In this document: positions 110 to 64,000 of the stretch, one piece after another
How the letters are laid out: each line of letters opens with the position of its first letter
How positions within the stretch are numbered: the stretch's first letter is position 1
Virus record (IMG/VR): IMGVR_UViG_3300029705_006930
Reading direction: 5' to 3' (one strand)
From: a virus
Lineage: Duplodnaviria; Heunggongvirae; Uroviricota; Caudoviricetes
Length of the DNA stretch: 64,000 bases
Notes under the pieces: model-generated
Database searches by the model: none
Seen by the model: the letters and a program-made list of their open reading frames with translations, nothing else
What the model was told of the DNA's origin: nothing
Program-made: the position numbers and the translations under genes

Positions 110-1411
110 CTATATCTCATTTTCAATCTCCTCATCTTCATCGTTATATCGTATCGGACTACCTACGGGAAGCATCTCTAAAAATGCTGCTCCAGGCAAC
201 CAATATTTACTTCCATCATTTGTTCTTTTTGCAACTGAAAAATGTATGTGTGCTATGCGTCCTAAATAATCATCTCTGTGTTCCCAAAATTCTTTGCGTT
301 CTTCATCGCTATATCCAAGAGGCAGCACGACGTTGCTACCTTTATAATCAACTATAAAACTCTGCAGTATATCTTCATTTTCTTTTTTTGTGTAATCAAC
401 TATCATCAAATCTGCTTCATGCATTTGTCTTAGGTATAAGAAACTTTCACTGTTCTGTCGGTATTTATATAAGTCATAATCAAGATTAACTAAAATTCCT
501 GCGTATCCTTTTTCTTTGGCTACTCTGAATGCTTTTAAAATATTTCCTCTGTAACGTCCATTAAATAAAATCGGGGCAAGTTGTATATGTTCGGTAGGTG
601 TAAAATTCGTCTCTAAAAATGTTCGTCGGTCTTTATATATGTTTTTACATGTCTTACGGTTAAATTCTTTCAAAGATAATATGTCATAGATATAAAATAT
701 AATGTCACTTTTATCGCGCTCTGGCAGTCGGACTATCCATCGCTCTTTCATTCGGCGGTCATAAGGGGAGAGGTCTTTTGCATCCTCACCTTTATAAACA
801 AGTTCGCCATCAAATACCACTTCATCAAACGGCAAGTCATTAAATTCCTGCAAGAGTTCATCGAAGCCCTCAAGGACAATGCCGAAGCGTGTATACATTC
901 TTGCTTCGCCACATTCTTTGATAACAGCGCAGCGGGTGCCATTGTACCAACCGGAAACTGTGAACTGTCGCTGACGCACATAGTCTTCGTTACCATAGTA
1001 CAGCCCCGGCATCATCAATGGGATTTCATAAACAGTTCCCGCGCCATATACTGTATTGACCTGTTTGGCTGAAACATTTATTTCAAGGTCTCTCAGCACC
1101 GCATCAATCAAAAAGTCGTGGAGCTCAGCGGGGTAGAGGGTAAGAGAACCATGTATCTTTGCCACAGCTTTTTTATTACCCGCCCCCATATATGTCAGAT
1201 ATTCAAGCAGGTCATCACCTTCGCCTGTCACAAACGGCACAACGTCTTCGGCTGTAATTTCGGACGGCGCCCATTTATCAAAGATAAGGAAACGGCTTAA
1301 CCCAAGACGCGTTTTCCCAAACTGATACAATAAAAAGTCTGTCCACTTGGTATTTGTTGCATTACGGCGCAATATGCGTATTTTTTCATCATAAGATGTT
1401 GTGGCCGCCAA
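110..1411 (-). CDS. ATP-dependent ligase-fold nucleotidyltransferase-like protein, probably non-catalytic
   Basis: Ordered motifs with ligase-like spacing: SGWYNGTR (motif I position, K replaced by W), FDGELV (III), IFYIYDIL (IIIa), EKGYAGILVN (IV, K replaced by N). Window edge; N-terminus at 1411. Confidence 0.35.
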   Translation of the reverse strand: MAATTSYDEKIRILRRNATNTKWTDFLLYQFGKTRLGLSRFLIFDKWAPSEITAEDVVPFVTGEGDDLLEYLTYMGAGNKKAVAKIHGSLTLYPAELHDFLIDAVLRDLEINVSAKQVNTVYGAGTVYEIPLMMPGLYYGNEDYVRQRQFTVSGWYNGTRCAVIKECGEARMYTRFGIVLEGFDELLQEFNDLPFDEVVFDGELVYKGEDAKDLSPYDRRMKERWIVRLPERDKSDIIFYIYDILSLKEFNRKTCKNIYKDRRTFLETNFTPTEHIQLAPILFNGRYRGNILKAFRVAKEKGYAGILVNLDYDLYKYRQNSESFLYLRQMHEADLMIVDYTKKENEDILQSFIVDYKGSNVVLPLGYSDEERKEFWEHRDDYLGRIAHIHFSVAKRTNDGSKYWLPGAAFLEMLPVGSPIRYNDEDEEIENEI

Positions 1412-4340: not shown

Positions 4341-4390
4341 TTTTTTGTACAAAATTTTTCGATTTTTCAAAAATCGGACGCTTGTTGCTA

Positions 4391-4419
4391 TTGACAATCT
4401 GTCGCTCAGGATTTACAAT
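4391..4419 (+). promoter_or_regulatory. SigA-type promoter TTGACA-N17-TACAAT for the sigma-factor gene
   Basis: Consensus -35 and near-consensus -10. Flanked by palindrome CGATTTTTCAAAAATCG (4357–4375) and inverted repeat GTGTAAACcgacaaGTTTACAC (4428–4449). Confidence 0.55.
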
Positions 4420-4545
4420 TTTAAGTGTAAACCGACAAGTTTACACCTACAATTCAATATATCTGTTGTGATTGTTCAAAGGGGGGTACAGATACACAAT
4501 CACAAAATCACACACTATTCAATATTTAAAGGAAGGTATTTATCT

Positions 4546-5241
4546 ATGAAAAAACTCACAAGAAAACAGCTTAAAGCAATAAAAAACACATCAAGCTACA
4601 AATATTTTGAACAATTGAAAACCCTTAAAGGCTCAATGCCGGCAGACAGCAAAAAAACCTATATAGAGCCAAATTCAGACCTTGAAAAATTCGCAAAATT
4701 GCAAGTTATGACCTTAAACAAATATATCCGCCAAGACGGCAAGGGACACAACTTGGCAGCACAAGTTTTGCAAGATTTACAACAGCAAGCTTGTTTGCTT
4801 ATTCTGGAAAACCCTTTAAGCCTTGACTGCTTTACAACAGAACAAGATAAACAGACAGAACAACAGCAACAAGCATTTAAGGCGGTTAAAAATGGTTTAT
4901 ATAGGTATTATTATCACAACTATACAAGCCGCAGCACATCTAAAATTCACAATAACCCGTCAAGTTACATTGCAACAGCTACATATCAAGCAACCGACGA
5001 TATCGGCAAAGATGCACGCGACAGCTATCAAATGGACCTTTACAAATTACATCTGGATGCAATTTTGACAATTTTAACAACGGATGAAAAATACATCTTT
5101 AATGGTTTATTTGTTGAAAACTTAACACAAAAACAACTTGCCGAAAAACTCAATAAATCACAAACTTATGTAGCAAAAACACTTGCAAATATCCGTAGCA
5201 AAATCAAAGCAAATGACCTTGATACACCGATAAACAATTAA
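4546..5241 (+). CDS. Phage-encoded sigma-70 family sigma factor
   Basis: Region-4 HTH LTQKQLAEKLNKSQTYVAKTLANIRSKI; region-2-like upstream segment. RBS AAAGGAAGG; start at codon 68 of the track ORF. Confidence 0.6.
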   Translation: MKKLTRKQLKAIKNTSSYKYFEQLKTLKGSMPADSKKTYIEPNSDLEKFAKLQVMTLNKYIRQDGKGHNLAAQVLQDLQQQACLLILENPLSLDCFTTEQDKQTEQQQQAFKAVKNGLYRYYYHNYTSRSTSKIHNNPSSYIATATYQATDDIGKDARDSYQMDLYKLHLDAILTILTTDEKYIFNGLFVENLTQKQLAEKLNKSQTYVAKTLANIRSKIKANDLDTPINN

Positions 5242-11950: not shown

Positions 11951-12070
11951 AATAACATACAGCTCATCTTTTTGAGACTGCTTTATTTTTTACAATAATA
12001 ACATACAAATCATCTTTTGTAGCTTTTAATCCTTGATTAAGGAAATATTTTTTTTAAGCAAATAACACAC
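11951..12070 (+). repeat. Three copies of a 21–23 nt motif AATAACATACAAATCATCTTTT in a 5' leader
   Basis: Copies at about 11951, 11996, 12051. Two more copies at 39954 and 40011. Confidence 0.6.
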
Positions 12071-12098
12071 AAATCATCTGTCAAAAGGAGAAATTGCA

Positions 12099-12224
12099 AT
12101 GTTACGTATTGTTAATGATAGGGGACACCTCCTCGCATATTGCGGAAACAAATTTCTTGTTTCGGCAGACAACGAGCGCGAAATGCAAAAAGAACTTGCA
12201 GAGCTCGGTTACACAATGACATAA
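12099..12224 (+). CDS. Small protein (41 aa)
   Basis: RBS AAAAGGAG; below the ORF-track cutoff. Confidence 0.35.
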   Translation: MLRIVNDRGHLLAYCGNKFLVSADNEREMQKELAELGYTMT

Positions 12225-12280
12225 AGGCAAGCCGGCCTTTATATATACAAACACTATTTTTTATAAAAGGAGATTTTAAA

Positions 12281-12727
12281 ATGGCAAAACTTAATCTTAC
12301 AGCAAATGTGCTGTCCCTTGAATCCGCACTTAAACTCGAAGATATCAAAAACGCAATGCGTTGGTGTCCAGATGCTCTCACAGTTATGGACGAAAAAGGC
12401 GAAGAAGAACTCTTCTCTGTTGCTGCAGGTACTTCAAAAGGTTATATCTCACCATACGGCATCACATTTGCTGCTGCAACAGTTCGTGGTGGTAAAGCTT
12501 GCTACACACGCGAAGTTGCACCAGGCACAGAAATGAAAGATATTGCTGAAGTTGTGCTCGCTGAATATGACAAACCAAAAGCATATCTTGAAGTTGTTGA
12601 AGCTCAGGTTGCTGAAGCTCTCGCAAAAGTTGCTGAACGTAGAACAGCTATTATGGCTGAACTTGCTGGCGAATGCGAATGTCCAGACTGCACACCAGAC
12701 TGTCCAACAGCACAGGGCGAAGAATAA
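12281..12727 (+). CDS. Hypothetical protein with strong codon bias and C-terminal Cys cluster
   Basis: RBS AAAAGGAG. Higher GC than neighbours. Followed by an A/C-rich, G-poor leader before the next gene. Confidence 0.6.
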   Translation: MAKLNLTANVLSLESALKLEDIKNAMRWCPDALTVMDEKGEEELFSVAAGTSKGYISPYGITFAAATVRGGKACYTREVAPGTEMKDIAEVVLAEYDKPKAYLEVVEAQVAEALAKVAERRTAIMAELAGECECPDCTPDCPTAQGEE

Positions 12728-12850
12728 TCTTCGCCCAACCTAAACAAACTTATCCGCAATTTAACCCAATATTTTCCATTAACATTAACAAACTTTTAAA
12801 CCGAAATCGTTAACAAACAAACTTAAACACATAAAAGGAGATTAAATATT

Positions 12851-13078
12851 ATGCTTAGAATTTATGTTGGTACAAACACAAACCGTACAGCTTACACACT
12901 TTCCCCAGAAACAACCCTCAGAGCAGCTTTTGAAACTGCAGGCGTGAACTATGAAATGGGTACCGCAACTCTTGATGGTTCCACACTTCAGCCGGGCGAC
13001 CTTGACAAGTCTTTTGCAGACTTCGGCATCACAGGTACAGCTTACCTCCTGAGCATTGTTAAAGCAAACAACGCTTAA
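12851..13078 (+). CDS. Ubiquitin-like beta-grasp protein (ThiS/MoaD-like), non-GG C-terminus
   Basis: 75 aa; MLRIYVG...TLDGSTLQPGD...AYLLSIV pattern resembles ThiS/MoaD. First gene of a Ubl/JAB/E1 operon. Confidence 0.45.
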   Translation: MLRIYVGTNTNRTAYTLSPETTLRAAFETAGVNYEMGTATLDGSTLQPGDLDKSFADFGITGTAYLLSIVKANNA

Positions 13079-13139
13079 TTGATTTTACCTATAGGGGCGG
13101 GAGCAATCCTGCCCCAATCTTTAAAGAGAGGAGCTCAGT

Positions 13140-14540
13140 ATGGCACACACATTTAAAAAATGGATGATAAAAGCCATTCCATATGACAACTTGTTTGACA
13201 TATCGGTGGACTTTGAGAATCCATTCCCGACCGATAATCGTCGCGATGCTACACTCGCGGCTGCATTTCACTGTTTGATTAAAGACAGAATTCCAGAGGG
13301 GGTTAATCGCATTGTAGTGCGTGATATCCACTCATATGACTGCAACGTGAGAGACATTTTTGACTATTATGAGGTTGAAAATGGTTTCAAAAGTTGTATT
13401 TTTTACTACGCAGATTGGGACAATGTGAATCTGCAGAGCAAAATTACATTGCCAAATGAATGGGAAGCTCAGGAAATTGCAAGCAAATTTACTGGATGTT
13501 ATGTTACAAATCACGTATCAAAACAATTGATGGTTATCTTTATTCCGAGCAACTATAACCTTGAAACTTGGCATAGACTTGGTGCATTGTTACCAAAATA
13601 TCCAGTGCTCGAGGATATGTGGGCAGCAAAACCACTTACCGAAGATGAACTCAAGATGTTGAAATCACTGTCAACAGACGGTGTAGATTTTGACACATAT
13701 ATAAAAGCGTGGATTGCGACACTCGACCTGCGCACATCCGCAATCAAAAAAATGTTCAACAAATTCATTATTGATAACATCGAGGAACAGATACGCAATG
13801 CCGAAGATAGACGTAGAAGCCTTGAAAACAATATCACAGACTATGCTGCGAGACTGGCAAGGCTGTATAGCGACCTTGACGGTGTTATTGAAATGATAAA
13901 CCGTCTTATGATAGGTGATGACACTGTTGAAGAAAAAGAAAAGAGACTTATCGAATTCTTGTTAACAAACAAAAATGTTGAGCCAATCAGACGTCGCAAT
14001 GACCGCGTTGAATTCAATGTTCACGCAGCAATTGACTGTTGGGATAACGATATGTTCTCATCTTATATCAATAATCACAACAGTTTATTGTATCGCCATA
14101 CAAGCAGATATTCATATGACCAGTTGAAACGTTTTTATGAGCAGGCATTGTTTGCCGGTCGCTTTAAAATTCAGGGCATTGCTAAATTTGAAATTGCAGC
14201 AACAGGTAATGTGAGACCAATTTCAAAAAATGGGCATTGGCCATCAGCTGAAATCGAAAACTGTATTCCAAATACACATGTGGATAAATTCACTTGTATT
14301 GGTAATCACAGACGTATGCTGGATGATGCTGCAAAAATTCGTGACTATGAACAGGCAATTTTGATTGCTATTCAGATTACACAGTCAGTTAACTGGTCGG
14401 ATGGTGCAGTTATGAATCACTTTATTCCTGAAGTGTTGCACTGTGAACGTCCAATTCTTACAGACAGAACAGGCAATACATACACTGTTGCACAGGTAAT
14501 AAGCATACTTGATGCCGAAATAAAGGAGGTTGAAAAATAA
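13140..14540 (+). CDS. Large hypothetical protein, possible E2-like component
   Basis: Sits in the E2 position of a Ubl-E2-DUB-E1 order. C-terminal PNTHVDKFTCIGN is weakly HPN-Cys-like. E2 assignment is weak. Confidence 0.5.
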   Translation: MAHTFKKWMIKAIPYDNLFDISVDFENPFPTDNRRDATLAAAFHCLIKDRIPEGVNRIVVRDIHSYDCNVRDIFDYYEVENGFKSCIFYYADWDNVNLQSKITLPNEWEAQEIASKFTGCYVTNHVSKQLMVIFIPSNYNLETWHRLGALLPKYPVLEDMWAAKPLTEDELKMLKSLSTDGVDFDTYIKAWIATLDLRTSAIKKMFNKFIIDNIEEQIRNAEDRRRSLENNITDYAARLARLYSDLDGVIEMINRLMIGDDTVEEKEKRLIEFLLTNKNVEPIRRRNDRVEFNVHAAIDCWDNDMFSSYINNHNSLLYRHTSRYSYDQLKRFYEQALFAGRFKIQGIAKFEIAATGNVRPISKNGHWPSAEIENCIPNTHVDKFTCIGNHRRMLDDAAKIRDYEQAILIAIQITQSVNWSDGAVMNHFIPEVLHCERPILTDRTGNTYTVAQVISILDAEIKEVEK

Positions 14541-15475
14541 TGAAACCAATAAGATTGACCGATGATGTAAAAGCGGCTATTCTTGATAAATTTGCAAAAC
14601 AGCTGAGCACGGTTGTACGTGCTTCAACTATTACATTCACACATACGCCAACAGTGGTAAGCACACCGTTAGGCAAAGATGAAAAAGTGCTGATTACTTA
14701 TACAGCAGAAGCATTCCGCAAGCAGCAGATGCTTATTCAGAGTTTTGACAGTGAAGTGGCTTGGCACGGTGTTGTTGAACGTGAAGATGCAAAGCATTTT
14801 ATTATTACAGATATCGTAGTATATCCCCAGACTGTTACCGGCTCAACTGTTGAGATGGACGAAGACAAATATGCTCTTTGGACAATTCAGTTCGGTCGTG
14901 AACACGGCGAAGAAACATTCCAGAAACTGCGTATGCAGGGACATAGCCACGTGAATATGGAATGTTTTGCAAGTGGTACAGACTCTAAACACCAGGATGA
15001 CATCTTGGCAACAACTGACCCAAATGGGTTCTATATTTTCATTATTGCCAATAAAAAAGGCAAATTCTGGAGCACTATTTTCGACCTCGAAGCAAATGTT
15101 CAGTATGAAAATGCTGACATCGAAATCGAGTATGAGGAAGATGAGTACGATGAATTTGTAAGTGCAGCAGAAAGTGTGGTTGTAAAAAAGACTTATACAC
15201 CACCTTACAACTATGGCAATGGCTATCACAACAACGGAGCAGGGTATTCATACGGGGCAAGCGCTTATTCTCAGAAGCCACCTCAGACTCCGCCTATGCC
15301 AGTGCTTCCGACAAATACACAGCCAAAAACAAGCACAAACGAAACAAACACAAAGGCAAACACAAACACAAAAAAGGACGATAAATCCATTGAAGAAGAT
15401 ATCACCAATCTTATTCAGATGTCATTGAACGATATGGAATGGGATGAAGTTGGTGGATGGACAAGCAAAATGTAA
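14540..15475 (+). CDS. JAB/JAMM metallopeptidase (deubiquitinase-like)
   Basis: Upstream Glu (VVERED) then GHSHVNMECFASGTD, i.e. HxHx7Sx2D. Low-complexity Y/G/N/T-rich C-terminal tail. Confidence 0.75.
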   Translation: MKPIRLTDDVKAAILDKFAKQLSTVVRASTITFTHTPTVVSTPLGKDEKVLITYTAEAFRKQQMLIQSFDSEVAWHGVVEREDAKHFIITDIVVYPQTVTGSTVEMDEDKYALWTIQFGREHGEETFQKLRMQGHSHVNMECFASGTDSKHQDDILATTDPNGFYIFIIANKKGKFWSTIFDLEANVQYENADIEIEYEEDEYDEFVSAAESVVVKKTYTPPYNYGNGYHNNGAGYSYGASAYSQKPPQTPPMPVLPTNTQPKTSTNETNTKANTNTKKDDKSIEEDITNLIQMSLNDMEWDEVGGWTSKM

Positions 15476-15484
15476 GGAGAAATT

Positions 15485-16174
15485 ATGGACTTAAGTAAAT
15501 CACTTGACTGGTTTAATCCAGACAGCGTTTCGGAACGCATACATATTATCGGATGCGGTAGTGTAGGTAGTACAGTTGTGGAACTGTTGGCAAGATTCGG
15601 TCTTACAAAGTTCACTCTGTATGATTTTGACCTTGTTGAACCTCACAATATCGCAAACCAGATGTTCAGAAAAACGGACATTGGTAAAACAAAAGTTGAA
15701 GCATTGCAGCAGATTGTATGTGAAATCAATCCAGAGGCGGGCAAAGATATTAAACTTGAACCAGAAGGTTGGCACGGACAGCAGTTGTCTGGCTATGTAG
15801 TTCTTGCTGTTGATAGCATTGAATTGCGTAAAAAGATTTGTGAAGGTTTGCAGATGAATATCTTTGTTAAAGCTGTGTTTGATTTCCGTACAAGTTTGCT
15901 CAACGCACAGCATTATGCAGCCAATTGGCAGGACAAAAAACATCGTGATGACCTCATTGCAACAATGCAGTTCACCGATGAAGAAGCTGCGGCTGAAAAC
16001 CCAGTATCAGCGTGTGGTGTAACACTTGGTGTCGCACCAACAGTAAGACTGATATGCACACTAGGCGTAAGCAATATGATGAACTTTTTCAGAGAAAAGA
16101 AATTGAAAAAAGTTGTATTGGCAGACGCATTTAATTTTGATGCTGACCCTATGGTATTACCTATGGGTCAATAA
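15485..16174 (+). CDS. E1-like ThiF/MoeB-family adenylyltransferase
   Basis: IIGCGSVGSTVVELLARFGL...LYDFDLVEPHNIANQMF, a Rossmann GxGxxG plus D.D.VE.sN..RQ signature. Confidence 0.75.
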   Translation: MDLSKSLDWFNPDSVSERIHIIGCGSVGSTVVELLARFGLTKFTLYDFDLVEPHNIANQMFRKTDIGKTKVEALQQIVCEINPEAGKDIKLEPEGWHGQQLSGYVVLAVDSIELRKKICEGLQMNIFVKAVFDFRTSLLNAQHYAANWQDKKHRDDLIATMQFTDEEAAAENPVSACGVTLGVAPTVRLICTLGVSNMMNFFREKKLKKVVLADAFNFDADPMVLPMGQ

Positions 16175-16199
16175 TACACAATAAGAGAAATGTTTATGG

Positions 16200-16500
16200 T
16201 GAATATTGCACATTGTATGGCAAGCTTTTGCTGTTAGCAGAAGTAAAGAAATGGTAGAGAACATAGAGGCAGGCGCTTAAGGAGCACGCTGAGGTGATTC
16301 CTAAGTACTGCAGCTTCTTGCATCCGACGAGCTCTGAAAAGGTAGGTTTAACAGGAGGATTGGATTACTTACAAGTGAAATTAACCAGTTCAAACCGTAA
16401 AGCTCATCTGAAATTAACGATAAATCCCAGATTTGCATCTCTTTTATCCGGGAATGAAGGGCTTAAAACTATAGCTAGACCATAAACAAGATAGGGAGGA
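16200..16500 (+). ncRNA. Candidate structured non-coding RNA upstream of the RT (contains repeat copy 1)
   Basis: 320 nt gap with repeat TTGCTGTTAGCAGaagtaaaGAAATGGTAGAGAA. An alternative GTG-start 63 aa ORF (16294..16485) with RBS AAGGAG cannot be excluded. Confidence 0.25.
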
Positions 16501-16504
16501 CATT

Positions 16505-17860
16505 ATGGTTTATATCACATATCCAGCACCTAACAAATTTCATCAGATTACATTTGAAGAAATGATGTCGGGCAATGTTAATACAGATAAATTAAGAATT
16601 TTAGGCGGACATAATACGCTTACTTTGCATCTTAACGATGTACCTGCAAACTTAAAAGGTCAGACTTCTGTACGCAAAATGATTGCAGATTTGCAGTATT
16701 TTGTAGGTGTATATTATGACACACTGATGCCACAGATAAAAGAATTTGAGAAGCTTTCAGATGCTCAGCGTCGCAGCGTCAAACAGCGTGACAAGATTGA
16801 AAATTATTTTGAACAGATGGGCGCAACTGCAAATGATGAAGACTTGCAGAAAATCACTGAACAGGTAGATGCGCTGCAGTGTGAAGTTGCAGAACAGCAG
16901 TATAAATATGCTTACTATACATTCGATTTGCGCAAAAGTTCAGCGCCGGAACACATTCCATTGTGGCGACTGCCAAAAGAATACAGACGTACAATCAATG
17001 CTCCGAACATACATCTTAAAAATGCGCTATATGAACTTAAAGAACTGTTTGAAAATATGATGATACGTACATATCATACTGCATCATTTGCGTATGTTAA
17101 ACATCGTGGAACTTTGGATGCTGTAAAACGTCATCAGAGCTGGGAAAGCAAATGGTTTGCAAAGTTTGACTTTTCAGATTTCTTTGGTAGCACAACAATT
17201 GACTTTGTTATGCAACAGTTCTCTCAAATATATCCGTTTAATATGATTTGTGCATATAAAGATGGTAAAGAAGCTCTTTATAAAGCATTGCAGTTGTGTT
17301 TTTTGGACGGTGGACTTCCACAGGGCACACCTATTAGTCCTCTCATCACAAACATAATGATGATACCATTTGACCACGCAATGTCAAAAGCTCTTAAAGA
17401 ATTTAAATATCCAAACAAACACGGTAGTGAACGTTTTGTGTATACAAGATATGCTGATGACCTGCTTATCAGTTGCCGTGTGGATTTTAAAGTGGAAATT
17501 ATTCAGGCATTTATTCTGGAAACTTTAAAATCAATGAATGCGCCTTTTAGCCTTAACGTTAAGAAAACTCGTTACGGTTCTAGTGCAGGTAGCAACTGGA
17601 ATCTTGGGGTGATGCTTAACAAAGACAATAAAATTACAATCGGTGCAGAAAACAAGCGCAGACTTAAAGCTTCTTTGAATTCATTTATCCTTGATATGAA
17701 GAATGAAAAACCTTGGGATATTTCTATGGTGTATAGACTCAGAGGTCAGATTTCTTATTATCGTAATGTGGAAAGGGAAGCAACAAATAACATCATTGCA
17801 GCGATGAACACAAAATATGGTGTTGATGCAGAAGCAATGATGAAATCTATTATAAGTTAA
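16505..17860 (+). CDS. Reverse transcriptase, retron/Abi-like
   Basis: RT motifs FAYVKHRGTLDAV, KFDFSDFFGS, LPQGTPISPLITN, YTRYADDLLIS (YADD). Motif-7 region NLGVMLNKDNKITIGAENKRR aligns to the retron VTGLVIS...IGRE block. Confidence 0.8.
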   Translation: MVYITYPAPNKFHQITFEEMMSGNVNTDKLRILGGHNTLTLHLNDVPANLKGQTSVRKMIADLQYFVGVYYDTLMPQIKEFEKLSDAQRRSVKQRDKIENYFEQMGATANDEDLQKITEQVDALQCEVAEQQYKYAYYTFDLRKSSAPEHIPLWRLPKEYRRTINAPNIHLKNALYELKELFENMMIRTYHTASFAYVKHRGTLDAVKRHQSWESKWFAKFDFSDFFGSTTIDFVMQQFSQIYPFNMICAYKDGKEALYKALQLCFLDGGLPQGTPISPLITNIMMIPFDHAMSKALKEFKYPNKHGSERFVYTRYADDLLISCRVDFKVEIIQAFILETLKSMNAPFSLNVKKTRYGSSAGSNWNLGVMLNKDNKITIGAENKRRLKASLNSFILDMKNEKPWDISMVYRLRGQISYYRNVEREATNNIIAAMNTKYGVDAEAMMKSIIS

Positions 17861-18797
17861 TTTAATTTTTATATATTGAATATCACAGTCATTGTGAAGT
17901 GTTGATGTTATCGGCACTAACGAAATGGTAAGAAAGTATGGCAGGAAGGCCCGCAGGTTCATGATGAAGACGCGTGCGAGCTTACAGCTCCAGCATAAAA
18001 ATTAGAAATGCTGGTACAATGAAAAGGAAGAAAATCATGAACGAAAGCCATACTTTCCAACATCCACAAAACCACGAATTTAAAACGCTTCATTACTCCG
18101 CGACCCTCCGCCAGGAGGGCCCGGGCGCGGTAAAGCGTCAAATAAATAATTGAGAATATATAAAAAAACTTTATTGAATATCTTTAAATTTGTACATAAA
18201 TTTAAGAACTGTTGCTGTTAGCAGCAGTGTCAAACGAACAGGATAAATAAAGAAATACAAATTTCTTTATTTAAATAACTTCTTAGCGTCGTAAGGCGCG
18301 ATGCTCCGACATCGCTCATGACGACGCCAAAGTTATTGAGAATAAAGTTAAAAAAATAATAAGAAAAATAAACAGTGTATATTTGCATAGCAAAGCTATT
18401 GATGTAATCAGTAGTACAGAAATGGTAGGAAAGATTACACGGGACGGTGTCGCCGGTGAGGAGCCACCTCCTTTGCAAACCCCTGCAATATTTCTAAAAC
18501 CTAATTAAAACTATGTCCGAATGGTCAAACATAACAGGAGGACTGAGAAACATCACCTGAAGGATACCAACTGAACCCCCAGTTCAGATGACACGACAGC
18601 TGGAGAAATCTAGACCCATGGGATGGTGATTCAACATTAAATTACAATTCAGACTGTTTATTGCTTTATAGTTTTTGCCAAGCTACGAAAACTCCAAATA
18701 ATGAGTAGTGTGTGACATAAAAGCCAAGCCTCGTCAACTCCCTTTCGGGGCTTGGTAAAGACTATAAAACAAACAATTTAAGTAAAGGAGAATATAT
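17861..18797 (+). ncRNA. About 940 nt structured non-coding region downstream of the RT with three further repeat copies
   Basis: Repeats at 17902–17939, 18212–18224, 18399–18436. GC-rich nested hairpins read at 18097–18140, 18287–18327, 18565–18590 and 18723–18760. Confidence 0.3.
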
Positions 18798-19187
18798 ATG
18801 ACAAAAGCAGAAAAAGCAGCTGGCAGGCTGTTAAGAAGAATGAATAAAGAATACTTGGGTGAGGTAGAAGCATTGATAAAAATGTGTCGACAGCCTAAAG
18901 TTGACCTTTCTGAAATCAGTATTCAGTCCTACAAAGTAACAGTTTTGGCAGAGCTCAAAGACGAATTTTTTGCAATCAAAATGACAGAAGATGAAATGGA
19001 GTATATTTATGACCTCTATGCTTGTCTTGATGCTCCTTTGAATTATTTGTGGGAATGTTGGCGTGATGATGAAGGCTATAACATTTCTGACTCCATTGGT
19101 GATTTAGTTTCTGATATTATAAGCCAGGATATCGAATGTATTTCAGAAGATAACTTAATCGAGGTGAATATGGATGAGACTGAATGA
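18798..19187 (+). CDS. Hypothetical protein
   Basis: RBS AAAGGAG. Confidence 0.55.
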   Translation: MTKAEKAAGRLLRRMNKEYLGEVEALIKMCRQPKVDLSEISIQSYKVTVLAELKDEFFAIKMTEDEMEYIYDLYACLDAPLNYLWECWRDDEGYNISDSIGDLVSDIISQDIECISEDNLIEVNMDETE

Positions 19188-35785: not shown

Positions 35786-36598
35786 ATGATAGATTGTAAA
35801 TTTAATGTTGAAAGACGACTTCAGCATCTTGCTGATTATGTAAAGGTAAATGACTTGACGGATAAAAAGCTTGCAGTTTTGCAGGTGGGAGATAATCCAG
35901 CTTCTAATTCTTACATAAAAGGCAAGAAAAAAGATGCGGACAAAGTAGGAATAACAGTACATCATATTAAATACGAGAACGACATCACGACTGATAAAAT
36001 TATTGAAGATATCAAACAGCTCAATAATAATGATGATGTGCTGGGCATTATTGTTCAGATGCCAATTCCAGAACATCTGGACAAAGAAAAGATTATTTCA
36101 ACTATTATTGACAATAAAGACGTTGACGGTTTTAAAAAGACAAGTCCATTCTTGCCATGCACACCGCTTGGTATTATATCAATTTTGGACGACATTAAGT
36201 ATGATGTTAAAGGCAGGACTGTATGCATTTTAGGACAGGGTCATGTGGGACGACCATTGACTCAGCTTCTGATGGATAGAGGGGCAACAATTGTTAGCTG
36301 TAATAGCAAGACACCTTTGCTGCAACGCAATTGTTATATGCGAACAAGTGATGTCCTTATTAGTGCAGTTGGACGCAAAGATTTGGTATTGCCAGGTAAT
36401 TTTTGGGATATGTTTTCTCAACGTTATGAATTTCCAGAAGTAATGATTGATGTTGGCATTAATCGCGATGAAAATGGTAAATTGTGCGGAGACTTTAGCC
36501 CAGAACTTTATGATTATGTAGAGAAAATTACTCCAGTGCCAGGTGGAGTCGGTCTTTATACAAGAGTCTCACTGCTTGAGAACACTATATATAAATAA
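35786..36598 (+). CDS. folD: Bifunctional methylene-THF dehydrogenase/cyclohydrolase
   Basis: VGDNPASNSYIKGKKK, GIIVQMPIP, DVDGF, TPLGI, GQGHVGRP, TPVPGGVG. Confidence 0.8.
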   Translation: MIDCKFNVERRLQHLADYVKVNDLTDKKLAVLQVGDNPASNSYIKGKKKDADKVGITVHHIKYENDITTDKIIEDIKQLNNNDDVLGIIVQMPIPEHLDKEKIISTIIDNKDVDGFKKTSPFLPCTPLGIISILDDIKYDVKGRTVCILGQGHVGRPLTQLLMDRGATIVSCNSKTPLLQRNCYMRTSDVLISAVGRKDLVLPGNFWDMFSQRYEFPEVMIDVGINRDENGKLCGDFSPELYDYVEKITPVPGGVGLYTRVSLLENTIYK

Positions 36599-55426: not shown

Positions 55427-56749
55427 ATGAGACAAATATTAAATATGAGAGAAACATTAACGCGAGTAAGTTTTTTATTTAAGACTATTGCGAGTACACC
55501 AAGGACAACTGAAAAGAAACGATTGTTGCGTTATATCAACAGCTCAGAACCAGAGAATGTATGTGAAATGTTTCTGTATACTTTACGATTTTTATTGGAT
55601 AACAATGTAACAACAGGTATCGATAAAAAGAAACTCAAAGCTCAAATTAATATGCCTGATATTAATTTTCCAATGAAATGGTCACATATGTTGGAATATA
55701 TCAAAGAAAACAATACAGGAAGGCATGAAGATATTCGCAGAGCACAGCTCTTTATCGAAGATAATCCCGAGAATGCGGAATTTATTGCTGATATTATAAC
55801 AAAATCATATAGGTTAGGACTGACAGCCAAAACAGTAAATGAAGTTTATGAAGATTTTATTCCTGTTTGGTCAGTACAGCAGGCATATCCTTTGGAAAAA
55901 TATCCGCTTAAGGACGGAGAATGGTTTTCTTTATCACAAAAGCTTAATGGGTTCCATGCCTCATATTACAAGGGTAAATTAATAAGCCGACAAGGAAAAG
56001 AAATCAAAGGTTGTAAGCACGTTATTAACGCAATAAACAACTTTAAACTTCAAGATTTCTTTATTGATGGCGAGCTTATCCGGCGTAATGATATTGAACC
56101 TCATCTCTCAGACGAAGAAAATTTTCGACAGACTGTTTCAATTGCGAATTCTGATTCTGACGACAAAACAGACCTGTGTTTTATTTATTATGATATCATT
56201 CCAGCTGATGATTTTGACAAAGGCAAATGTGAAATAACATATCGCCAACGTCTTAATGACATGCATAAATTAAACAGTATAATTCTGCAGACTCCATTTT
56301 ATAAAACGTTTCATATGGTGAAATGGTTTTATCACGGCAATGACCAAAAGAAAATTCAGTTTTGGCTTGATTATGCAAATGAAAATGATATGGAGGGTCT
56401 TATGTTAAATAAGGATACTGTATATCAATGCAAACGTAATTCAGGCATTTTAAAGGTAAAAAGTTGGAAACATTGTGACCTTAGAGTAACGGGCGTTGAA
56501 GAAGGCGATGGCAAATACAAAGGAACCCTTGGAAAACTGATTGTGGACTATAAAGGAAATACTTTGGGATTAAGTGGAATGAGCGATGAGGAACGTTATA
56601 TATTTTGGAATAATCCACAGGACATAGTTGGGAAGATTGTGCTCGTTAAATATAAACAGGAAACAAAAGACAAAACAGGTAAACGTAGTTTGCAGTTCGC
56701 AACCTACCAAGGTGTTAGAACTGATAAAGATGAAGTCAGCTACAATTAA
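55427..56749 (+). CDS. ATP-dependent DNA ligase
   Basis: KLNGFHA (I), FIDGELI (III), EGLMLNK (IV), ILKVKSW (V). Confidence 0.65.
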   Translation: MRQILNMRETLTRVSFLFKTIASTPRTTEKKRLLRYINSSEPENVCEMFLYTLRFLLDNNVTTGIDKKKLKAQINMPDINFPMKWSHMLEYIKENNTGRHEDIRRAQLFIEDNPENAEFIADIITKSYRLGLTAKTVNEVYEDFIPVWSVQQAYPLEKYPLKDGEWFSLSQKLNGFHASYYKGKLISRQGKEIKGCKHVINAINNFKLQDFFIDGELIRRNDIEPHLSDEENFRQTVSIANSDSDDKTDLCFIYYDIIPADDFDKGKCEITYRQRLNDMHKLNSIILQTPFYKTFHMVKWFYHGNDQKKIQFWLDYANENDMEGLMLNKDTVYQCKRNSGILKVKSWKHCDLRVTGVEEGDGKYKGTLGKLIVDYKGNTLGLSGMSDEERYIFWNNPQDIVGKIVLVKYKQETKDKTGKRSLQFATYQGVRTDKDEVSYN

Positions 56750-62419: not shown

Positions 62420-64000
62420 ATGAAAAGAGTTGCATGTTTATATCGTGTTTCAACAAAAGGACAAGTTGATAAAGATGACATTCCTATGCAGCGTAAAGAA
62501 TGCAGTGAATTTATTAAAAAACAGGGATGGCAATTAGTCAATGAATATTATGAAAAAGGTGTCAGTGGCTATAAAAAATCAGCAGACCAACGTGATGTAT
62601 TGCAAACAATCAAGAATGATGCTTTAAATAATCAGTTTGACATTCTGCTTGTCTATATGTTTGACAGATTAGGACGACGCGAAGATGAAACTCCATTTAT
62701 TCTTGAATGGTTTACAAAACAAGGTATAGAAATGTGGAGTGTTAAAGAAGGCCAACAGTCCTTTTCACAACATATTGATAAATTACTTAACTACATACGT
62801 TTCTGGCAAGCCAGCGGTGAAAGTCATAAGACTTCTATGCGTGTTGATAGTAGCCATAGGCAAATGGCTGAAGAAGGCAAATTTAGAGGCGGCGATGCAC
62901 CATATGGATATATGCTTGTAAAAACAGGTGTATTCAATAAAAAGAAAAAAGAATTATTAAAATTAGTCATCAATACCATTGAGGCCCCTATTGTGCAGCT
63001 TATATATAAGTTAGCTTTGGAGGGATATGGTCAAACAAAAATAGCCAAATATTTAAATGAGCACGGCATAAAAACTCGAAACAATAAAATGTGGAATAGT
63101 GGTACAATTGGTTATATCCTAAAAAATCCAATTTATAAAGGTTATCCTGCATATAGAAAGAAAACAGGACAAGGAGAGGGAGTTCATAATTTGCCAAGTT
63201 CAGAATGGATATTATCTTCGGCACAGCAAATTGAGCTTGTTATAATTTCAGAGAATGATTGGGATAGAGTGCAGGAATTACGTACACAACATCATAATTC
63301 TCCTAATCATAACACAATCACAAATTCACCATTATTATTAGTTGGGTTGACTTACTGTGGATGCTGTAAAAGTCCATTGACTACCACTTATTCATATAAG
63401 TACAATAAAGATAAAACAAAGGTATATCAGCGACCAAAATATCGTTGCTCTGGTAAGGCAAATGCAAAAGCACTCTGTGATGGACAAACCGTTTATAGCG
63501 CAGAGAAATATGAAAAAGCTGTTTTAAATCAGATTGATATTTATTTAAATAAAATCAAAAATACACCACAATCTCAACAAGATACAACAGCTAATGATTT
63601 TCAAAAAAATATTAAATCTCTCGAGCATAAATTAGCAAAAATCAATAATATGATAGAAATATTATCTGATGAAGTTGGTAATGCCTTGATAGGAGAAAGT
63701 CGATTTACACCAGAAGTTTTGGCAGAACAAATTAACAAAAAACAACAAGATAAAATTTTAATACAAAATGAACTTGACAAAATAAAACAAGAGGCAGATA
63801 ATTATAACCATGAACAAATCAATACACAGCAATTAAACCAAGTTATTCCAATCTGGAAAGAAAGGTTTGACGGATTTTCAACTGAAAAGAAAAAACGTTT
63901 ATTGCGTATCTTGATTTCACGCATTGAATTTAATAGAGATACAATTATTATAGATTTTAATACAACTATTCAATGCTTTTTAGATGCTATCACTGCATAA
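62420..64000 (+). CDS. Large serine recombinase (integrase)
   Basis: Resolvase N-terminal domain YRVSTKGQ...LLVYMFDRLGRR; recombinase and zinc-ribbon/coiled-coil C-terminal domains. TAA at the window end. Confidence 0.85.
   Translation: MKRVACLYRVSTKGQVDKDDIPMQRKECSEFIKKQGWQLVNEYYEKGVSGYKKSADQRDVLQTIKNDALNNQFDILLVYMFDRLGRREDETPFILEWFTKQGIEMWSVKEGQQSFSQHIDKLLNYIRFWQASGESHKTSMRVDSSHRQMAEEGKFRGGDAPYGYMLVKTGVFNKKKKELLKLVINTIEAPIVQLIYKLALEGYGQTKIAKYLNEHGIKTRNNKMWNSGTIGYILKNPIYKGYPAYRKKTGQGEGVHNLPSSEWILSSAQQIELVIISENDWDRVQELRTQHHNSPNHNTITNSPLLLVGLTYCGCCKSPLTTTYSYKYNKDKTKVYQRPKYRCSGKANAKALCDGQTVYSAEKYEKAVLNQIDIYLNKIKNTPQSQQDTTANDFQKNIKSLEHKLAKINNMIEILSDEVGNALIGESRFTPEVLAEQINKKQQDKILIQNELDKIKQEADNYNHEQINTQQLNQVIPIWKERFDGFSTEKKKRLLRILISRIEFNRDTIIIDFNTTIQCFLDAITA

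What the first reader, a model, noticed from the sequence alone, without database searches (positions are those of the whole stretch)
12851..16174. Phage-borne ubiquitin-like conjugation operon: Ubl, large unknown, JAB peptidase, E1
Four co-directional, RBS-coupled genes encode a 75 aa ThiS/MoaD-like beta-grasp protein, a 466 aa unknown in the E2 position, a JAMM/JAB protein with an intact HxHx7Sx2D motif, and a minimal ThiF/MoeB E1 with GxGxxG plus the D.D.VE.sN..RQ signature. This order (Ubl–E2–DUB–E1) matches the architecture reported for bacterial Bil/6E-type ubiquitin-like antiviral systems. Here it sits inside a phage early region, and the Ubl lacks a terminal Gly-Gly (ends ..IVKANNA), which would imply JAB processing or a divergent mechanism. 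The Ubl and the preceding gene show strong codon bias and an A/C-only leader, suggesting high expression. The JAB C-terminal tail EEDITNLIQMSLNDME weakly resembles a ubiquitin-interacting motif.
Basis: partly seen in the sequence, partly recalled or inferred. Interest (0 to 1): 0.8.

Follow-up and report, generated by a model that had tools for sequence, protein, structure and literature searches.

The report
Phage ubiquitin-like module joined to retron
A widespread lineage of large phages of gut Clostridia carries a conserved gene block encoding a ubiquitin-like protein, its activating enzyme, a trimming protease, two proteins of unknown fold and a retron with several small structured RNAs, a combination I found in no paper of the held library and whose purpose is unknown.

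Summary
The four ORFs exist as described. Three calls hold. The 75 aa protein has a confident ubiquitin-like beta-grasp model. The 311 aa protein is a JAMM/MPN+ peptidase with every catalytic residue invariant. The 229 aa protein is a ThiF-family E1 with a conserved crossover-loop cysteine. The E2 call does not hold: the 466 aa protein has an invariant His380/Cys386 pair, but no search matched it to a UBC fold or any solved structure.

The unit is larger than reported. In about 200 related loci from gut phages and MAGs the order is p148, Ubl, p466, JAB, E1, then a retron-type reverse transcriptase. The RT is flanked by 2-5 RNA units of about 300 nt, each bounded by inverted repeats and carrying a hairpin with strong covariation.

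The Ubl ends in a conserved ..K-A-D-N-Ala. Homologues often carry extra residues after it, or an in-frame p148 fusion, which points to JAB processing.

Best reading: a phage-encoded Ubl activation and conjugation pathway with a non-canonical cysteine carrier, genetically coupled to a multi-RNA retron. It is not a member of the Bil, Bub, CBASS or PRTRC families. Its target and role are unknown.

The parts
12281..12727 (+). p148: a protein of about 130-148 aa and unknown fold. It has the strongest codon bias in the block and is always next to the Ubl.
   Evidence: It is present upstream of the Ubl in nearly all related loci. It is fused in frame behind the Ubl (..VKADNA|A.IKIAG..) in L008/L010, L011, L017 and L122. 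It occurs in 2-3 copies in L115, L119 and L174. Invariant residues are S15, L33, G60, F63 and E107. It has no hit in Pfam or the PDB. ENC is 35.9.
12851..13078 (+). Ubl: a 75 aa ubiquitin-like beta-grasp protein that ends ..K-A-N-N-Ala.
   Evidence: The AF2 model has pLDDT 93 and pTM 0.81, with b-b-a-b-b topology. The top Foldseek PDB matches are ubiquitin, NEDD8, SUMO and the bacterial Ubl 8tyx, with TM 0.57-0.67. The C-terminal K-x-D/N-N-A is conserved. Of 83 distinct homologues with the strict motif, 49 end at the Ala and the rest carry 1-22 extra residues or a p148 fusion.
13140..14540 (+). p466: a variable N-terminal alpha/beta domain, a long coiled-coil helix, and a conserved C-terminal domain with invariant His380 and Cys386. 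It is the candidate thiol carrier or ligase, but it is not a recognisable E2.
14540..15475 (+). JAMM/MPN+ metallopeptidase (JAB) with a low-complexity linker and a C-terminal tail.
   Evidence: E72, H135, H137, S145 and D148 are invariant in 44 sequences. The family profile matches Rpn11 (E = 2e-4) with the catalytic residues aligned. 22 of 44 members weakly match Pfam Prok-JAB PF14464.
15485..16174 (+). A minimal ThiF-family E1 adenylating enzyme with a conserved Cys177.
   Evidence: Pfam ThiF scores 74 bits. The closest solved relatives are UBA5, Uba1, MccB, Cap2, TcdA and MoeB. Family-conserved residues are GCGxxG, R37, D47, D49, N55, N58-Q59, K70, D110, R115, D133, R135 and S-A-C177.
16191..16488 (+). 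Retron-like RNA unit 1. The a1 repeat is 16191-16200 and the a2 repeat is 16479-16488. G16201 is conserved. Hairpins lie at about 16206-16223 and 16225-16243.
   Evidence: Across divergent loci the a1/a2 repeats differ in sequence but stay complementary, and the hairpins covary. Covariance model R1 scores 42.1 bits here. The repeats are perfect 10-mers and the unit is 298 nt long.
16505..17860 (+). Retron-type reverse transcriptase (451 aa, YADD motif).
   Evidence: NCBIfam retron St85 family gives E = 1e-46 at 159.5 bits, below the 235-bit cut-off. PADLOC RT_II-A gives E = 2e-41. Pfam RVT_1 matches. It lies downstream of the E1 in almost all loci. In a search anchored on the RT, every locus with enough upstream DNA has the cassette.
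17866..18662 (+). Three more retron-like RNA units in tandem: 17866-18166, 18167-18349 and 18367-18662.
   Evidence: Each unit is bounded by perfect inverted repeats of 9-12 nt, followed by G(A/T)ATAT. Each carries a paralogue of hairpin 2 with compensatory changes. The region 17861-18797 folds with z = -6.35. The same layout, 1 unit upstream and 1-3 downstream of the RT, recurs across loci.

Best explanation
The block encodes a phage ubiquitin-like protein activation and conjugation pathway. It is built around three recognisable parts (Ubl, ThiF-type E1, JAMM peptidase) and two lineage-specific proteins, and it is genetically coupled to a multi-RNA retron.

Proposed steps:
1. The Ubl is made in excess, in some phages as a precursor with extra C-terminal residues or fused to p148. 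Shown: the precursor forms exist. Inferred: the excess.
2. The JAMM peptidase cuts after the conserved ..D-N-Ala, exposing Ala75, and probably also reverses conjugates (inferred by analogy with BilC, BubCD and Cap3).
3. The E1 adenylates the Ala75 carboxylate and takes the Ubl onto Cys177. Shown: the adenylation fold and the conserved Cys. Inferred: the chemistry.
4. The Ubl passes to Cys386 of p466. Next to invariant His380, this Cys would act as an E2/E3-like carrier. The fast-evolving N-terminal domain of p466 would choose the target (inferred).
5. The target is unknown. p148 is a candidate partner or substrate.

The module works in the same process as the adjacent retron, most plausibly in a phage-host or phage-phage conflict. 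How the two connect is not known.
For: Component identities:
- The Ubl fold is confirmed.
- The JAMM catalytic set is invariant and aligns with Rpn11.
- The E1 is ThiF family, related to UBA5, Uba1, Cap2 and MoeB, with conserved ATP/Mg residues and a conserved Cys177.

Processing:
- The ..KADNA end is conserved. Variable extensions and in-frame Ubl-p148 fusions begin exactly after the Ala. This parallels JAB cleavage of the BubAB fusion (PMC11601596).
- A C-terminal Ala is compatible with E1 chemistry. Type II CBASS CD-NTases end in Gly or Ala, and a G432A mutant still conjugates (PMC10449767).

Thiol carrier:
- p466 has only two invariant residues in 65 sequences, H380 and C386, six residues apart in a confidently modelled domain.
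- The order of secondary-structure elements around them (helix, two strands, insert, two strands, loop with P-N-x-H, Cys, helices) resembles the UBC order (my own reading).

A selected unit:
- The same gene order recurs in about 200 loci at 35-60% protein identity, while the flanking genes differ.
- The junctions suggest translational coupling.

Retron coupling:
- The association is reciprocal.
- In L105 the RT and an RNA unit sit between the JAB and the E1.
- An RNA unit follows the E1 even where no RT is nearby.
- An RNase H1 gene is inserted inside the cassette in one group.
Against: - The E1 lacks the Arg of the D-x-D-x-V-x-x-x-N-x-x-R-Q motif. It has N58.
- The match of Cys177 to ThiF C184 and MoeB C187 rests on motif spacing only. 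BLAST did not align that region.
- The Ubl has no terminal Gly.
- No conjugate, target or E3 can be seen from sequence.
- All loci belong to one phage lineage, so conserved order could partly be inherited synteny.
- Three loci (L087, L115, L119) have the cassette with no RT within 7-8 kb.
- Unrelated genes are often inserted between cassette genes: an HNH endonuclease, a toxin-antitoxin pair, a sliding clamp, and proteins of 266 aa and 175 aa.
Confidence: 0.5

Rival explanations
1. The neighbours are independent. The Ubl/E1/JAB block and the retron are two separate accessory modules, for example two defence or counter-defence systems. They lie side by side only because this phage lineage inherited that order. 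The Ubl block would still work as described, but with no functional tie to the RT or its RNAs.
For: All loci come from one lineage of 50-150 kb phages of gut Clostridia. The E1-RT gap varies from 0.3 to 6 kb and often holds extra genes. L087, L115 and L119 have no RT within 7-8 kb. Retrons are known as self-contained defence units, often carried on prophages (established knowledge).
Against: The genes flanking the block (p322, p127, p129) are not conserved, while the six genes are. The association is reciprocal among the 80 closest RT relatives. In L105 the RT has moved but stays inside the block. No other candidate retron effector gene is conserved next to the RT.
Confidence: 0.25
2. This is a sulfur-carrier pathway. 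The Ubl would be a ThiS/MoaD/TtuB-type carrier whose C-terminus the E1 turns into a thiocarboxylate. p466 Cys386 would relay sulfur into a small molecule or nucleic acid, perhaps the retron DNA/RNA or phage DNA. The JAB would only mature the carrier, as QbsD and Mec+ do.
For: The trio of Ubl, ThiF-type E1 and JAMM is also the signature of sulfur-carrier systems such as CysO/Mec+ and QbsE/QbsD (established knowledge; PMC1779556). The E1 is a minimal ThiF/MoeB-size enzyme, and its best NCBIfam hits are ThiF models. No recognisable E2 was found.
Against: The carrier ends in Ala, not Gly-Gly. The Ubl model matches ubiquitin, NEDD8 and SUMO ahead of ThiS or MoaD. No rhodanese, cysteine desulfurase, ThiG, MoaE or PP-loop thiolase is seen in the block or its conserved neighbours. 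Fusion of the Ubl to a partner protein and tandem duplication of that pair fit protein-level biology better.
Confidence: 0.12
3. p148, not p466, is the E2-equivalent, as in Type I Bub operons where the Ubl is fused to a small cysteine-less E2. Its invariant Ser15 would carry the Ubl as an oxyester. p466 would be an E3-like adaptor, an effector or the target.
For: Ubl-p148 fusions have the junction exactly at the processing site. This mirrors BubAB, whose E2 part is 133 aa with an invariant Ser and no Cys (PMC11601596). p148 is of E2 size, has an invariant Ser and has no conserved Cys.
Against: Ser15 lies at the N-terminus, not after a beta-meander as E2 active sites do. The apparent secondary-structure order of p148 (strand, helix, strands, long helices; my reading of the alignment, not modelled) is not the UBC order. 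The E1 keeps a crossover-loop Cys, unlike BubCD, which argues for thioester chemistry and a Cys acceptor. p148 varies in copy number from 1 to 3, which would be unusual for an enzyme.
Confidence: 0.15
4. The E1 modifies the Ubl C-terminus itself, as MccB or PaaA do, for example by forming a peptidyl-nucleotide or a cyclised end. The product would be a toxin or signal rather than a protein conjugate.
For: MccB is among the closest solved relatives of the E1 (E = 2e-6). The conserved tail ..D-N-A contains Asn one residue from the end, and the MccA substrate ends in Asn (established knowledge).
Against: The E1 lacks the N-terminal peptide-clamp domain of MccB: it is 229 aa against about 350. The substrate is a folded 75 aa beta-grasp, not a short peptide. 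The terminal residue is Ala in all 83 homologues that carry the strict motif.
Confidence: 0.04

Closest known systems
Bil (bacterial ISG15-like) systems, BilA-D
   Same: Both have a separate Ubl, a JAMM peptidase and an E1 in one operon, with a further protein in the 'E2 position'. Both sit in a phage-bacterium conflict setting. In both, the JAB can expose or recycle the Ubl C-terminus (PMC11601596).
   Different: Bil is host-encoded and anti-phage, whereas this block is phage-encoded. BilD is a multi-domain IAD-AAD-CYS E1, whereas this E1 is a 229 aa single adenylation domain. BilB is a UBC-fold E2, whereas p466 shows no UBC similarity. The Ubl ends in Ala, not Gly. No PADLOC or NCBIfam defence model hits the Ubl, p466 or the JAB. 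This block has the extra p148 gene and a retron.
Type I Bub (6E.1) operons, BubAB/BubCD/BubE
   Same: In both, the Ubl is made as a fusion to a protein of about 130 aa and is presumably released by a JAMM peptidase at the conserved C-terminal residue. Both have a minimal homodimer-type E1 that resembles UBA5 and ThiF.
   Different: Here the JAB and E1 are separate genes. The E1 keeps a crossover-loop Cys, whereas Bub uses Tyr and Ser oxyesters. There is no DUF6527/BubE. The fusion occurs only in a minority of loci and its partner p148 is not demonstrably an E2. The terminal residue is Ala, not Gly.
Type II CBASS Cap2/Cap3
   Same: The E1 domain is related: its best PADLOC hits are the CBASS E1-E2 models, and Cap2 is among its PDB hits. 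A JAMM antagonist or processor is present. The substrate C-terminus may be Ala (PMC10449767).
   Different: There is no E2-E1 fusion, no CD-NTase and no effector of the CBASS kind. The substrate here is a true beta-grasp Ubl.
E2-less Ubl systems and sulfur carriers (archaeal SAMP/UbaA/JAMM1, TtuB/TtuC, ThiS-ThiF, MoaD-MoeB, CysO/Mec+, QbsE/QbsD); comparison from established knowledge
   Same: Both have a small beta-grasp protein, a ThiF/MoeB-size E1 and a JAMM peptidase that matures or deconjugates. No canonical E2 is needed.
   Different: Those carriers end in Gly-Gly and are linked to sulfur-transfer enzymes. Neither is the case here.
Retrons (RT closest to the St85 / type II-A family)
   Same: The RT is best matched by retron RT models. 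Upstream lies non-coding RNA bounded by a1/a2 inverted repeats, with a conserved G just after a1 and conserved stem-loops.
   Different: The RT scores below the curated cut-off (159.5 against 235 bits). There are 2-5 tandem RNA units per RT, on both sides of the gene, instead of one. The neighbouring conserved genes are a Ubl/E1/JAMM set, which I recall for no retron type and found in no paper of the held library. The carrier is a large phage of Clostridia.

Membership tests
Bil (BilA-D) | Beta-grasp Ubl | tested here: met
   The AF2 model has pLDDT 93. Its Foldseek top hits are ubiquitin, NEDD8, SUMO and the bacterial Ubl 8tyx.
Bil (BilA-D) | Ubl C-terminal glycine used for conjugation | tested here: not met
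   The terminal residue of the conserved motif is Ala in all 83 homologues that carry the strict motif.
Bil (BilA-D) | UBC-fold E2 with a catalytic Cys | tested here: not met
Bil (BilA-D) | JAB/JAMM peptidase | tested here: met
   The E...HxH-x7-S-xx-D motif is invariant and the family profile matches Rpn11.
Bil (BilA-D) | [quoted passage not shown] | tested here: not met
   The E1 is a 229 aa single ThiF domain.
Bil (BilA-D) | Match to curated defence-system models | tested here: not met
   PADLOC and NCBIfam give no hit for the Ubl, p466 or the JAB. The E1 hits only generic E1 and Cap2 models, far below their cut-offs.
Type I Bub (6E.1) | Ubl-E2 fusion cleaved by a JAB | tested here: inconclusive
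   Ubl-p148 fusions occur in L008/L010, L011, L017 and L122. p148 has not been shown to be an E2, and cleavage cannot be tested here.
Type I Bub (6E.1) | JAB-E1 fusion protein lacking a crossover-loop Cys | tested here: not met
   The JAB and E1 are separate genes. Cys177 is conserved in at least 95% of the 77 E1 sequences compared.
Type I Bub (6E.1) | DUF6527/BubE serine protease | tested here: not met
   No such Pfam hit was found in the block or its neighbours.
Type II CBASS | Cap2 E2-E1 fusion with a CD-NTase substrate | tested here: not met
   The E1 stands alone. No CD-NTase lies in the locus.
ThiS/MoaD-type sulfur carrier systems | ThiF/MoeB-family adenylating enzyme | tested here: met
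   PF00899 scores 74 bits.
ThiS/MoaD-type sulfur carrier systems | Carrier ending in Gly-Gly | tested here: not met
   The carrier ends ..D/N-N-Ala.
ThiS/MoaD-type sulfur carrier systems | Linked sulfur donor or acceptor enzymes (rhodanese, desulfurase, ThiG, MoaE, thiolase) | tested here: not met
   None appear among the Pfam and NCBIfam hits of the block and its neighbours.
PRTRC system | Matches to the PRTRC A, B, C, E and F models, and a ParB gene | tested here: not met
   The only match is a 31-bit hit of the E1 to TIGR03736 (cut-off 144.75). The other proteins, including 65 p466 members, hit nothing.
Retron | RT of the retron clade | tested here: inconclusive
   The best matches are retron RT models (NF038233 at 159.5 bits; PADLOC RT_II-A at 140 bits), but the score is below the NCBIfam cut-off of 235.
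Retron | Adjacent ncRNA bounded by a1/a2 inverted repeats, with a conserved G after a1 and conserved stem-loops | tested here: met
   The a1/a2 repeats covary between loci. Perfect complements of 9 nt or more occur in 50% of 111 units against 2.5% of shuffles. All four window units have perfect repeats followed by G. The hairpin is 99% paired, with 238 compensatory cells against 58 in shuffles.
Retron | Production of branched msDNA | not testable with these tools
   This needs RT and ncRNA expression followed by nucleic-acid analysis.

The most novel reading that the evidence does not exclude
The six genes and the RNA array form one system: a phage-borne retron whose accessory module is a ubiquitin-like conjugation machine. 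The retron's RT and several msDNA species would sense or act on a host or rival-phage factor. The Ubl/E1/p466/JAB set would then tag, activate or release a protein in response, or would regulate the RT complex itself. That would be a new retron type and the first link between reverse-transcribed DNA and Ubl conjugation. p466 would be a new fold of Ubl-carrier enzyme.
Probability: 0.3. Interest if true: 0.9.

Novelty: new variant of a known kind. Interest (0 to 1): 0.8.

Why it matters
Bacterial ubiquitin-like conjugation (Bil, Bub, CBASS Cap2/3) has so far been studied as host defence. Here a complete-looking set is a conserved feature of a large and abundant lineage of phages of gut Clostridia. 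IMG/VR alone holds 556 RT relatives and 174 JAB relatives, and p466 has over 1000 cluster representatives.

Three things would follow if the reading is right:
- Viruses of bacteria would be using Ubl chemistry themselves, as many eukaryotic viruses do.
- p466, an unannotated family with a His/Cys pair, could be a new class of Ubl carrier or ligase.
- The fixed association with a retron that has several template RNAs gives a concrete, testable system for two open questions: what phage-encoded retrons do, and what non-Gly Ubl systems conjugate.

All parts are small and could be expressed in a test tube.

Tried and rejected
- **Near-identical DNA in GenBank phages:** no match. tblastn with the JAB found one unannotated faecal contig. 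No cultured relative carries the cassette.
- **PRTRC idea:** the gene order E-C-B-A-ThiF looked similar from memory. I rejected it because no PRTRC model matches apart from a weak ThiF hit.
- **Rfam on 12000-19000 at E <= 1:** nothing.
- **p148 as a second Ubl:** hhalign against the Ubl family gave probability 0.5%, so rejected. PDB and Pfam gave nothing.
- **nhmmer with the window's E1-RT spacer:** it found only near-identical loci. The RNA became visible only after aligning spacers from many loci.
- **A fifth motif copy at 36447:** found by regular expression. It lies in coding sequence, I saw no hairpin in it, and the best flanking inverted repeat is only 8 nt. I treat it as chance.
- **The repeated 43-nt motif as a promoter:** considered. 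The covarying hairpin, the flanking inverted repeats and the restriction to the RT neighbourhood favour an RNA element.
- **The search for related loci with the p466 alignment:** failed because no stretch was conserved enough.
- **BLAST of the E1 against an E. coli MoeB sequence typed from memory:** only the N-terminal half aligned, so the Cys177 equivalence stays an inference.
- **UIM-like tail of the JAB:** not conserved in the family.

Full report
**1. The observation**

The junctions are tight. p466 and JAB overlap as TAATG behind a GGAGG, and 9 nt with AGGAGA separate JAB from E1.

The window is phage-like. It holds dozens of short co-directional ORFs, a DnaE-type polymerase, a DnaB helicase, two ATP-dependent ligases, a ribonucleotide reductase, a sigma-like protein and a large serine recombinase. 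The polymerase is 36-39% identical to those of large Firmicute phages such as Geobacillus virus E3 and Bacillus phage Sophrita.

The E1 motif reads D-F-D-L-V-E-P-H-N-I-A-N-Q, so the quoted 'RQ' is N58-Q59, aligned with MoeB R73-Q74. The Ubl leader is G-poor (7 G in 123 nt) rather than A/C-only.

**2. The three recognisable proteins**

*E1.* It passes Pfam ThiF (74 bits). Its closest solved relatives are UBA5, Uba1, MccB, Cap2, TcdA and MoeB. Across 77 homologues it keeps GCGxxG, D47, D49, N55, K70, D110 and an S-A-C177 just before a G-V-x-P stretch. By motif spacing that Cys corresponds to the crossover-loop cysteine of ThiF and MoeB. This is my inference, because BLAST did not align that half.

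*JAB.* The 311 aa protein hit no library on its own, but it has at least 427 homologues. In 44 of them E72, H135, H137, S145 and D148 are invariant. The family profile matches Rpn11 at E = 2e-4 with those residues aligned. Half the members weakly match Pfam Prok-JAB.

*Ubl.* The 75 aa protein has 56 homologues. An AlphaFold model built on them is confident (pLDDT 93) and has beta-grasp topology. Its best PDB matches are ubiquitin, NEDD8, SUMO and a bacterial Ubl.

**3. The Ubl C-terminus**

The family ends in ..V-V-K-A-D-N-A. Of 83 distinct homologues with the strict motif, 49 stop at the Ala. The others carry 1-22 further residues or, in four distinct sequences, run straight into a p148 domain (..VKADNA|A.IKIAG..).

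This is the pattern of a Ubl made as a precursor and trimmed by its peptidase. It closely parallels the BubAB fusion cut by the JAB domain of BubCD (PMC11601596). A terminal Ala is unusual but has precedent: type II CBASS CD-NTases end in Gly or Ala, and a Gly-to-Ala mutant still conjugates (PMC10449767).

**4. The 466 aa protein is not a demonstrable E2**

A word-index search found only a near-identical copy. An exhaustive HMMER search found 1052 cluster representatives, nearly all 450-500 aa. In 65 of them only H380 and C386 are invariant, in the motif P-N-P-H-x5-C-x-G.

The model is confident (pLDDT 87.6). It shows a variable N-terminal alpha/beta domain, a 50-residue helix and a C-terminal domain. 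The order of elements in that domain (helix, two strands, two inserted helices, two strands, loop with P-N-x-H, Cys, helices) recalls a UBC fold.

No search supports that reading:
- The best Foldseek match had E = 0.24.
- PDB profile searches of the whole protein and of the C-domain alone found no E2.
- Scans of 65 members against Pfam and NCBIfam were empty of any consistent family.

I therefore treat p466 as a candidate thiol carrier of unknown fold, not as an E2.

**5. The unit is bigger than the finding**

I looked at related loci in three ways:
- The context of a 39%-identical JAB homologue showed the same order with two more genes: a protein of about 130 aa upstream and a reverse transcriptase downstream.
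- Of the 86 loci fetched through the JAB from IMG/VR and assemblies, every one with enough flank reads p148, Ubl, p466, JAB, E1, RT. The window's flanking genes are not shared.
- 39 loci from GTDB genomes, all MAGs and mostly gut Oscillospiraceae, Ruminococcus, Lachnospiraceae and termite Defluviitaleaceae, show the same order.

Exceptions among these:
- L087, L115 and L119 have no RT within 7-8 kb.
- L118 has the RT 6 kb away.
- L105 has the RT between the JAB and the E1.
- L125 is a decayed copy.

Anchoring the search on the RT instead gave 556 relatives in IMG/VR. Among the best 80, every locus with enough upstream DNA carries the cassette.

p148 is duplicated or triplicated in some loci. 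It has the strongest codon bias in the block. It matches nothing known.

Unrelated genes are sometimes inserted between cassette genes: an HNH endonuclease, a PIN/AbrB pair, a sliding clamp, a 266 aa DUF6273-like protein, an acidic 175 aa protein and, in one group, an RNase H1.

**6. The RT is a retron with several RNA units**

The RT is best matched by retron models (St85 family, E = 1e-46; PADLOC RT_II-A), though below the curated cut-off.

Aligning the E1-RT spacers of 16 divergent loci revealed a shared layout: a 5' segment whose reverse complement recurs just before the RT start, an invariant T-G after it, and two hairpins whose sequences differ but stay paired. In the window the segment is TGTTTATGGT / ACCATAAACA; in other loci it is, for example, CTTGTAAT / ATTACAAG or ATCGTGAT / ATCACGAT.

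A covariance model of the 5' module found 111-142 copies in 49-63 sources. All are on the + strand, typically one upstream and one to three downstream of the RT.
- On 111 copies the hairpin is 99% paired, with 238 compensatory cells against 58 in shuffles and 36-56% paired in slid controls. The alignment was fitted to the model, so this leans in its favour.
- Perfect flanking complements of 9 nt or more occur in 50% of units against 2.5% of shuffled controls. Unit lengths cluster near 290 nt.
- The window has four units: 16191-16488, 17866-18166, 18167-18349 and 18367-18662. Each has perfect 9-12 nt repeats followed by G(A/T)ATAT.
- The 940 nt after the RT fold far better than shuffles (z = -6.35).

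Terminal inverted repeats, a conserved G next to a1 and RT-proximal stem-loops are the defining anatomy of retron msr-msd RNA (established knowledge). Several units per RT is not usual.

**7. How it most likely works**

Shown:
- the identities of the Ubl, E1 and JAB;
- the conserved non-Gly tail, with precursor and fusion forms;
- an invariant His/Cys pair in p466;
- the conserved six-gene order;
- the retron RNA anatomy.

Inferred:
- The JAB trims after Ala75 and may reverse conjugates.
- The E1 adenylates Ala75 and forms a thioester on Cys177.
- The Ubl moves to Cys386 of p466, whose variable N-terminal domain selects a target.
- p148 is a partner or substrate.
- The module acts together with the retron, probably in phage-host or phage-phage conflict.

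I put 0.5 on this pathway. Rivals and variants (these are not all mutually exclusive):
- 0.25 that the retron is merely a neighbour;
- 0.15 that p148 rather than p466 is the E2-equivalent, by analogy with Bub;
- 0.12 on a sulfur-carrier role;
- 0.04 on MccB-like tail chemistry.

**8. Comparison and novelty**

It works like the Bil, Bub and CBASS-II family of bacterial Ubl systems but is a member of none. It has no UBC E2, no Gly terminus, a single-domain E1 with a Cys, no BubE and no Cap2 fusion, and it hits no defence-model library. It is not PRTRC.

Full-text searches found no paper linking retrons to ThiF, JAB or Ubl genes, or describing this phage cassette.

I class it as a new variant of a known kind. 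About 0.3 is the chance that it is a single retron-Ubl system, which would be a new kind.

Noticed in passing
window 16191-16488, 17866-18166, 18167-18349, 18367-18662; RT at 16505-17860: A retron-type RT is flanked by four tandem RNA units. Each is bounded by perfect inverted repeats followed by a conserved G and carries a covarying hairpin. Related phages have 2-5 such units per RT. Rfam has no match.
   Followed up: yes
L008/L010 5820-6440; L011 5040-5738; L017 4945-5565; L122 1606-2370: The Ubl is fused in frame to a p148 domain directly after the conserved ..KADNA. In these loci the order is therefore Ubl then p148, the reverse of the window.
   Followed up: partly
L115 4987-6481; L119 713-2209; L174 and L184: The p148-Ubl pair is tandemly duplicated in L115 and L119. 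L174 has three p148 copies, and L184 has the order Ubl-p148-Ubl. This part of the block varies in copy number.
   Followed up: no
L028 5483-6133 (and three related loci): An RNase H1 gene (Cauli_VI hybrid-binding domain plus RNase_H) is inserted between the Ubl and p466. RNase H is the host activity that matures retron msDNA.
   Followed up: partly
L105 9142-12299: The RT and one RNA unit lie between the JAB and the E1, with a second RNA unit after the E1. The retron has moved but stayed inside the block.
   Followed up: partly
L087 10459-10531; L115 10663-10729; L119 6016-6082: These three loci have no RT within 7-8 kb of the E1. An RNA unit of the same family still follows the E1 directly. 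In L087 and L115 it has 11-nt flanking inverted repeats; the L119 unit was not checked for repeats.
   Followed up: partly
window 13094-13116: A GC-rich hairpin (GGGGCGGGAGCAATCCTGCCCC) followed by AATCTTTAAA lies between the Ubl stop and the p466 start. It could attenuate transcription so that p148 and the Ubl are made in excess of the enzymes.
   Followed up: no
L107 8241-8920 (- strand); L113 9540-10697; L026 10220-10768: Unrelated genes are inserted between cassette genes: a PIN/AbrB-like toxin-antitoxin pair, a sliding-clamp-like gene and an HNH endonuclease-like gene. These identities are my reading of the translations; they were not scanned against a family library.
   Followed up: no
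L001 9618-10418 (40 loci); L026 9001-9528 (17 loci): Two recurrent optional genes sit inside the block. One is a 266 aa protein with a weak DUF6273 match, between the E1 and the RNA/RT. The other is a very acidic 175 aa protein between the JAB and the E1.
   Followed up: partly
L125 7950-10510: A fragmented, apparently pseudogenised copy of the whole block, RT included, lies in a 244 kb Oscillospiraceae MAG contig. It may be a decaying prophage.
   Followed up: no
window 110-1411 (-) and 55427-56749 (+): The same window holds two ATP-dependent DNA ligase genes on opposite strands.
   Followed up: no
window 4345-5241; 62420-64000: A sigma-factor-like protein lies in the early region. A large serine recombinase (PHROG 'integrase') lies at the window end, which suggests a temperate phage with its own transcription specificity.
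   Followed up: no
L001-L004 16127-16906: In the distant relative, isochorismatase-family and phosphoribosyltransferase genes lie a few kb downstream of the block. This pairing is reminiscent of phage NAD-salvage counter-defence genes (from memory).
   Followed up: no
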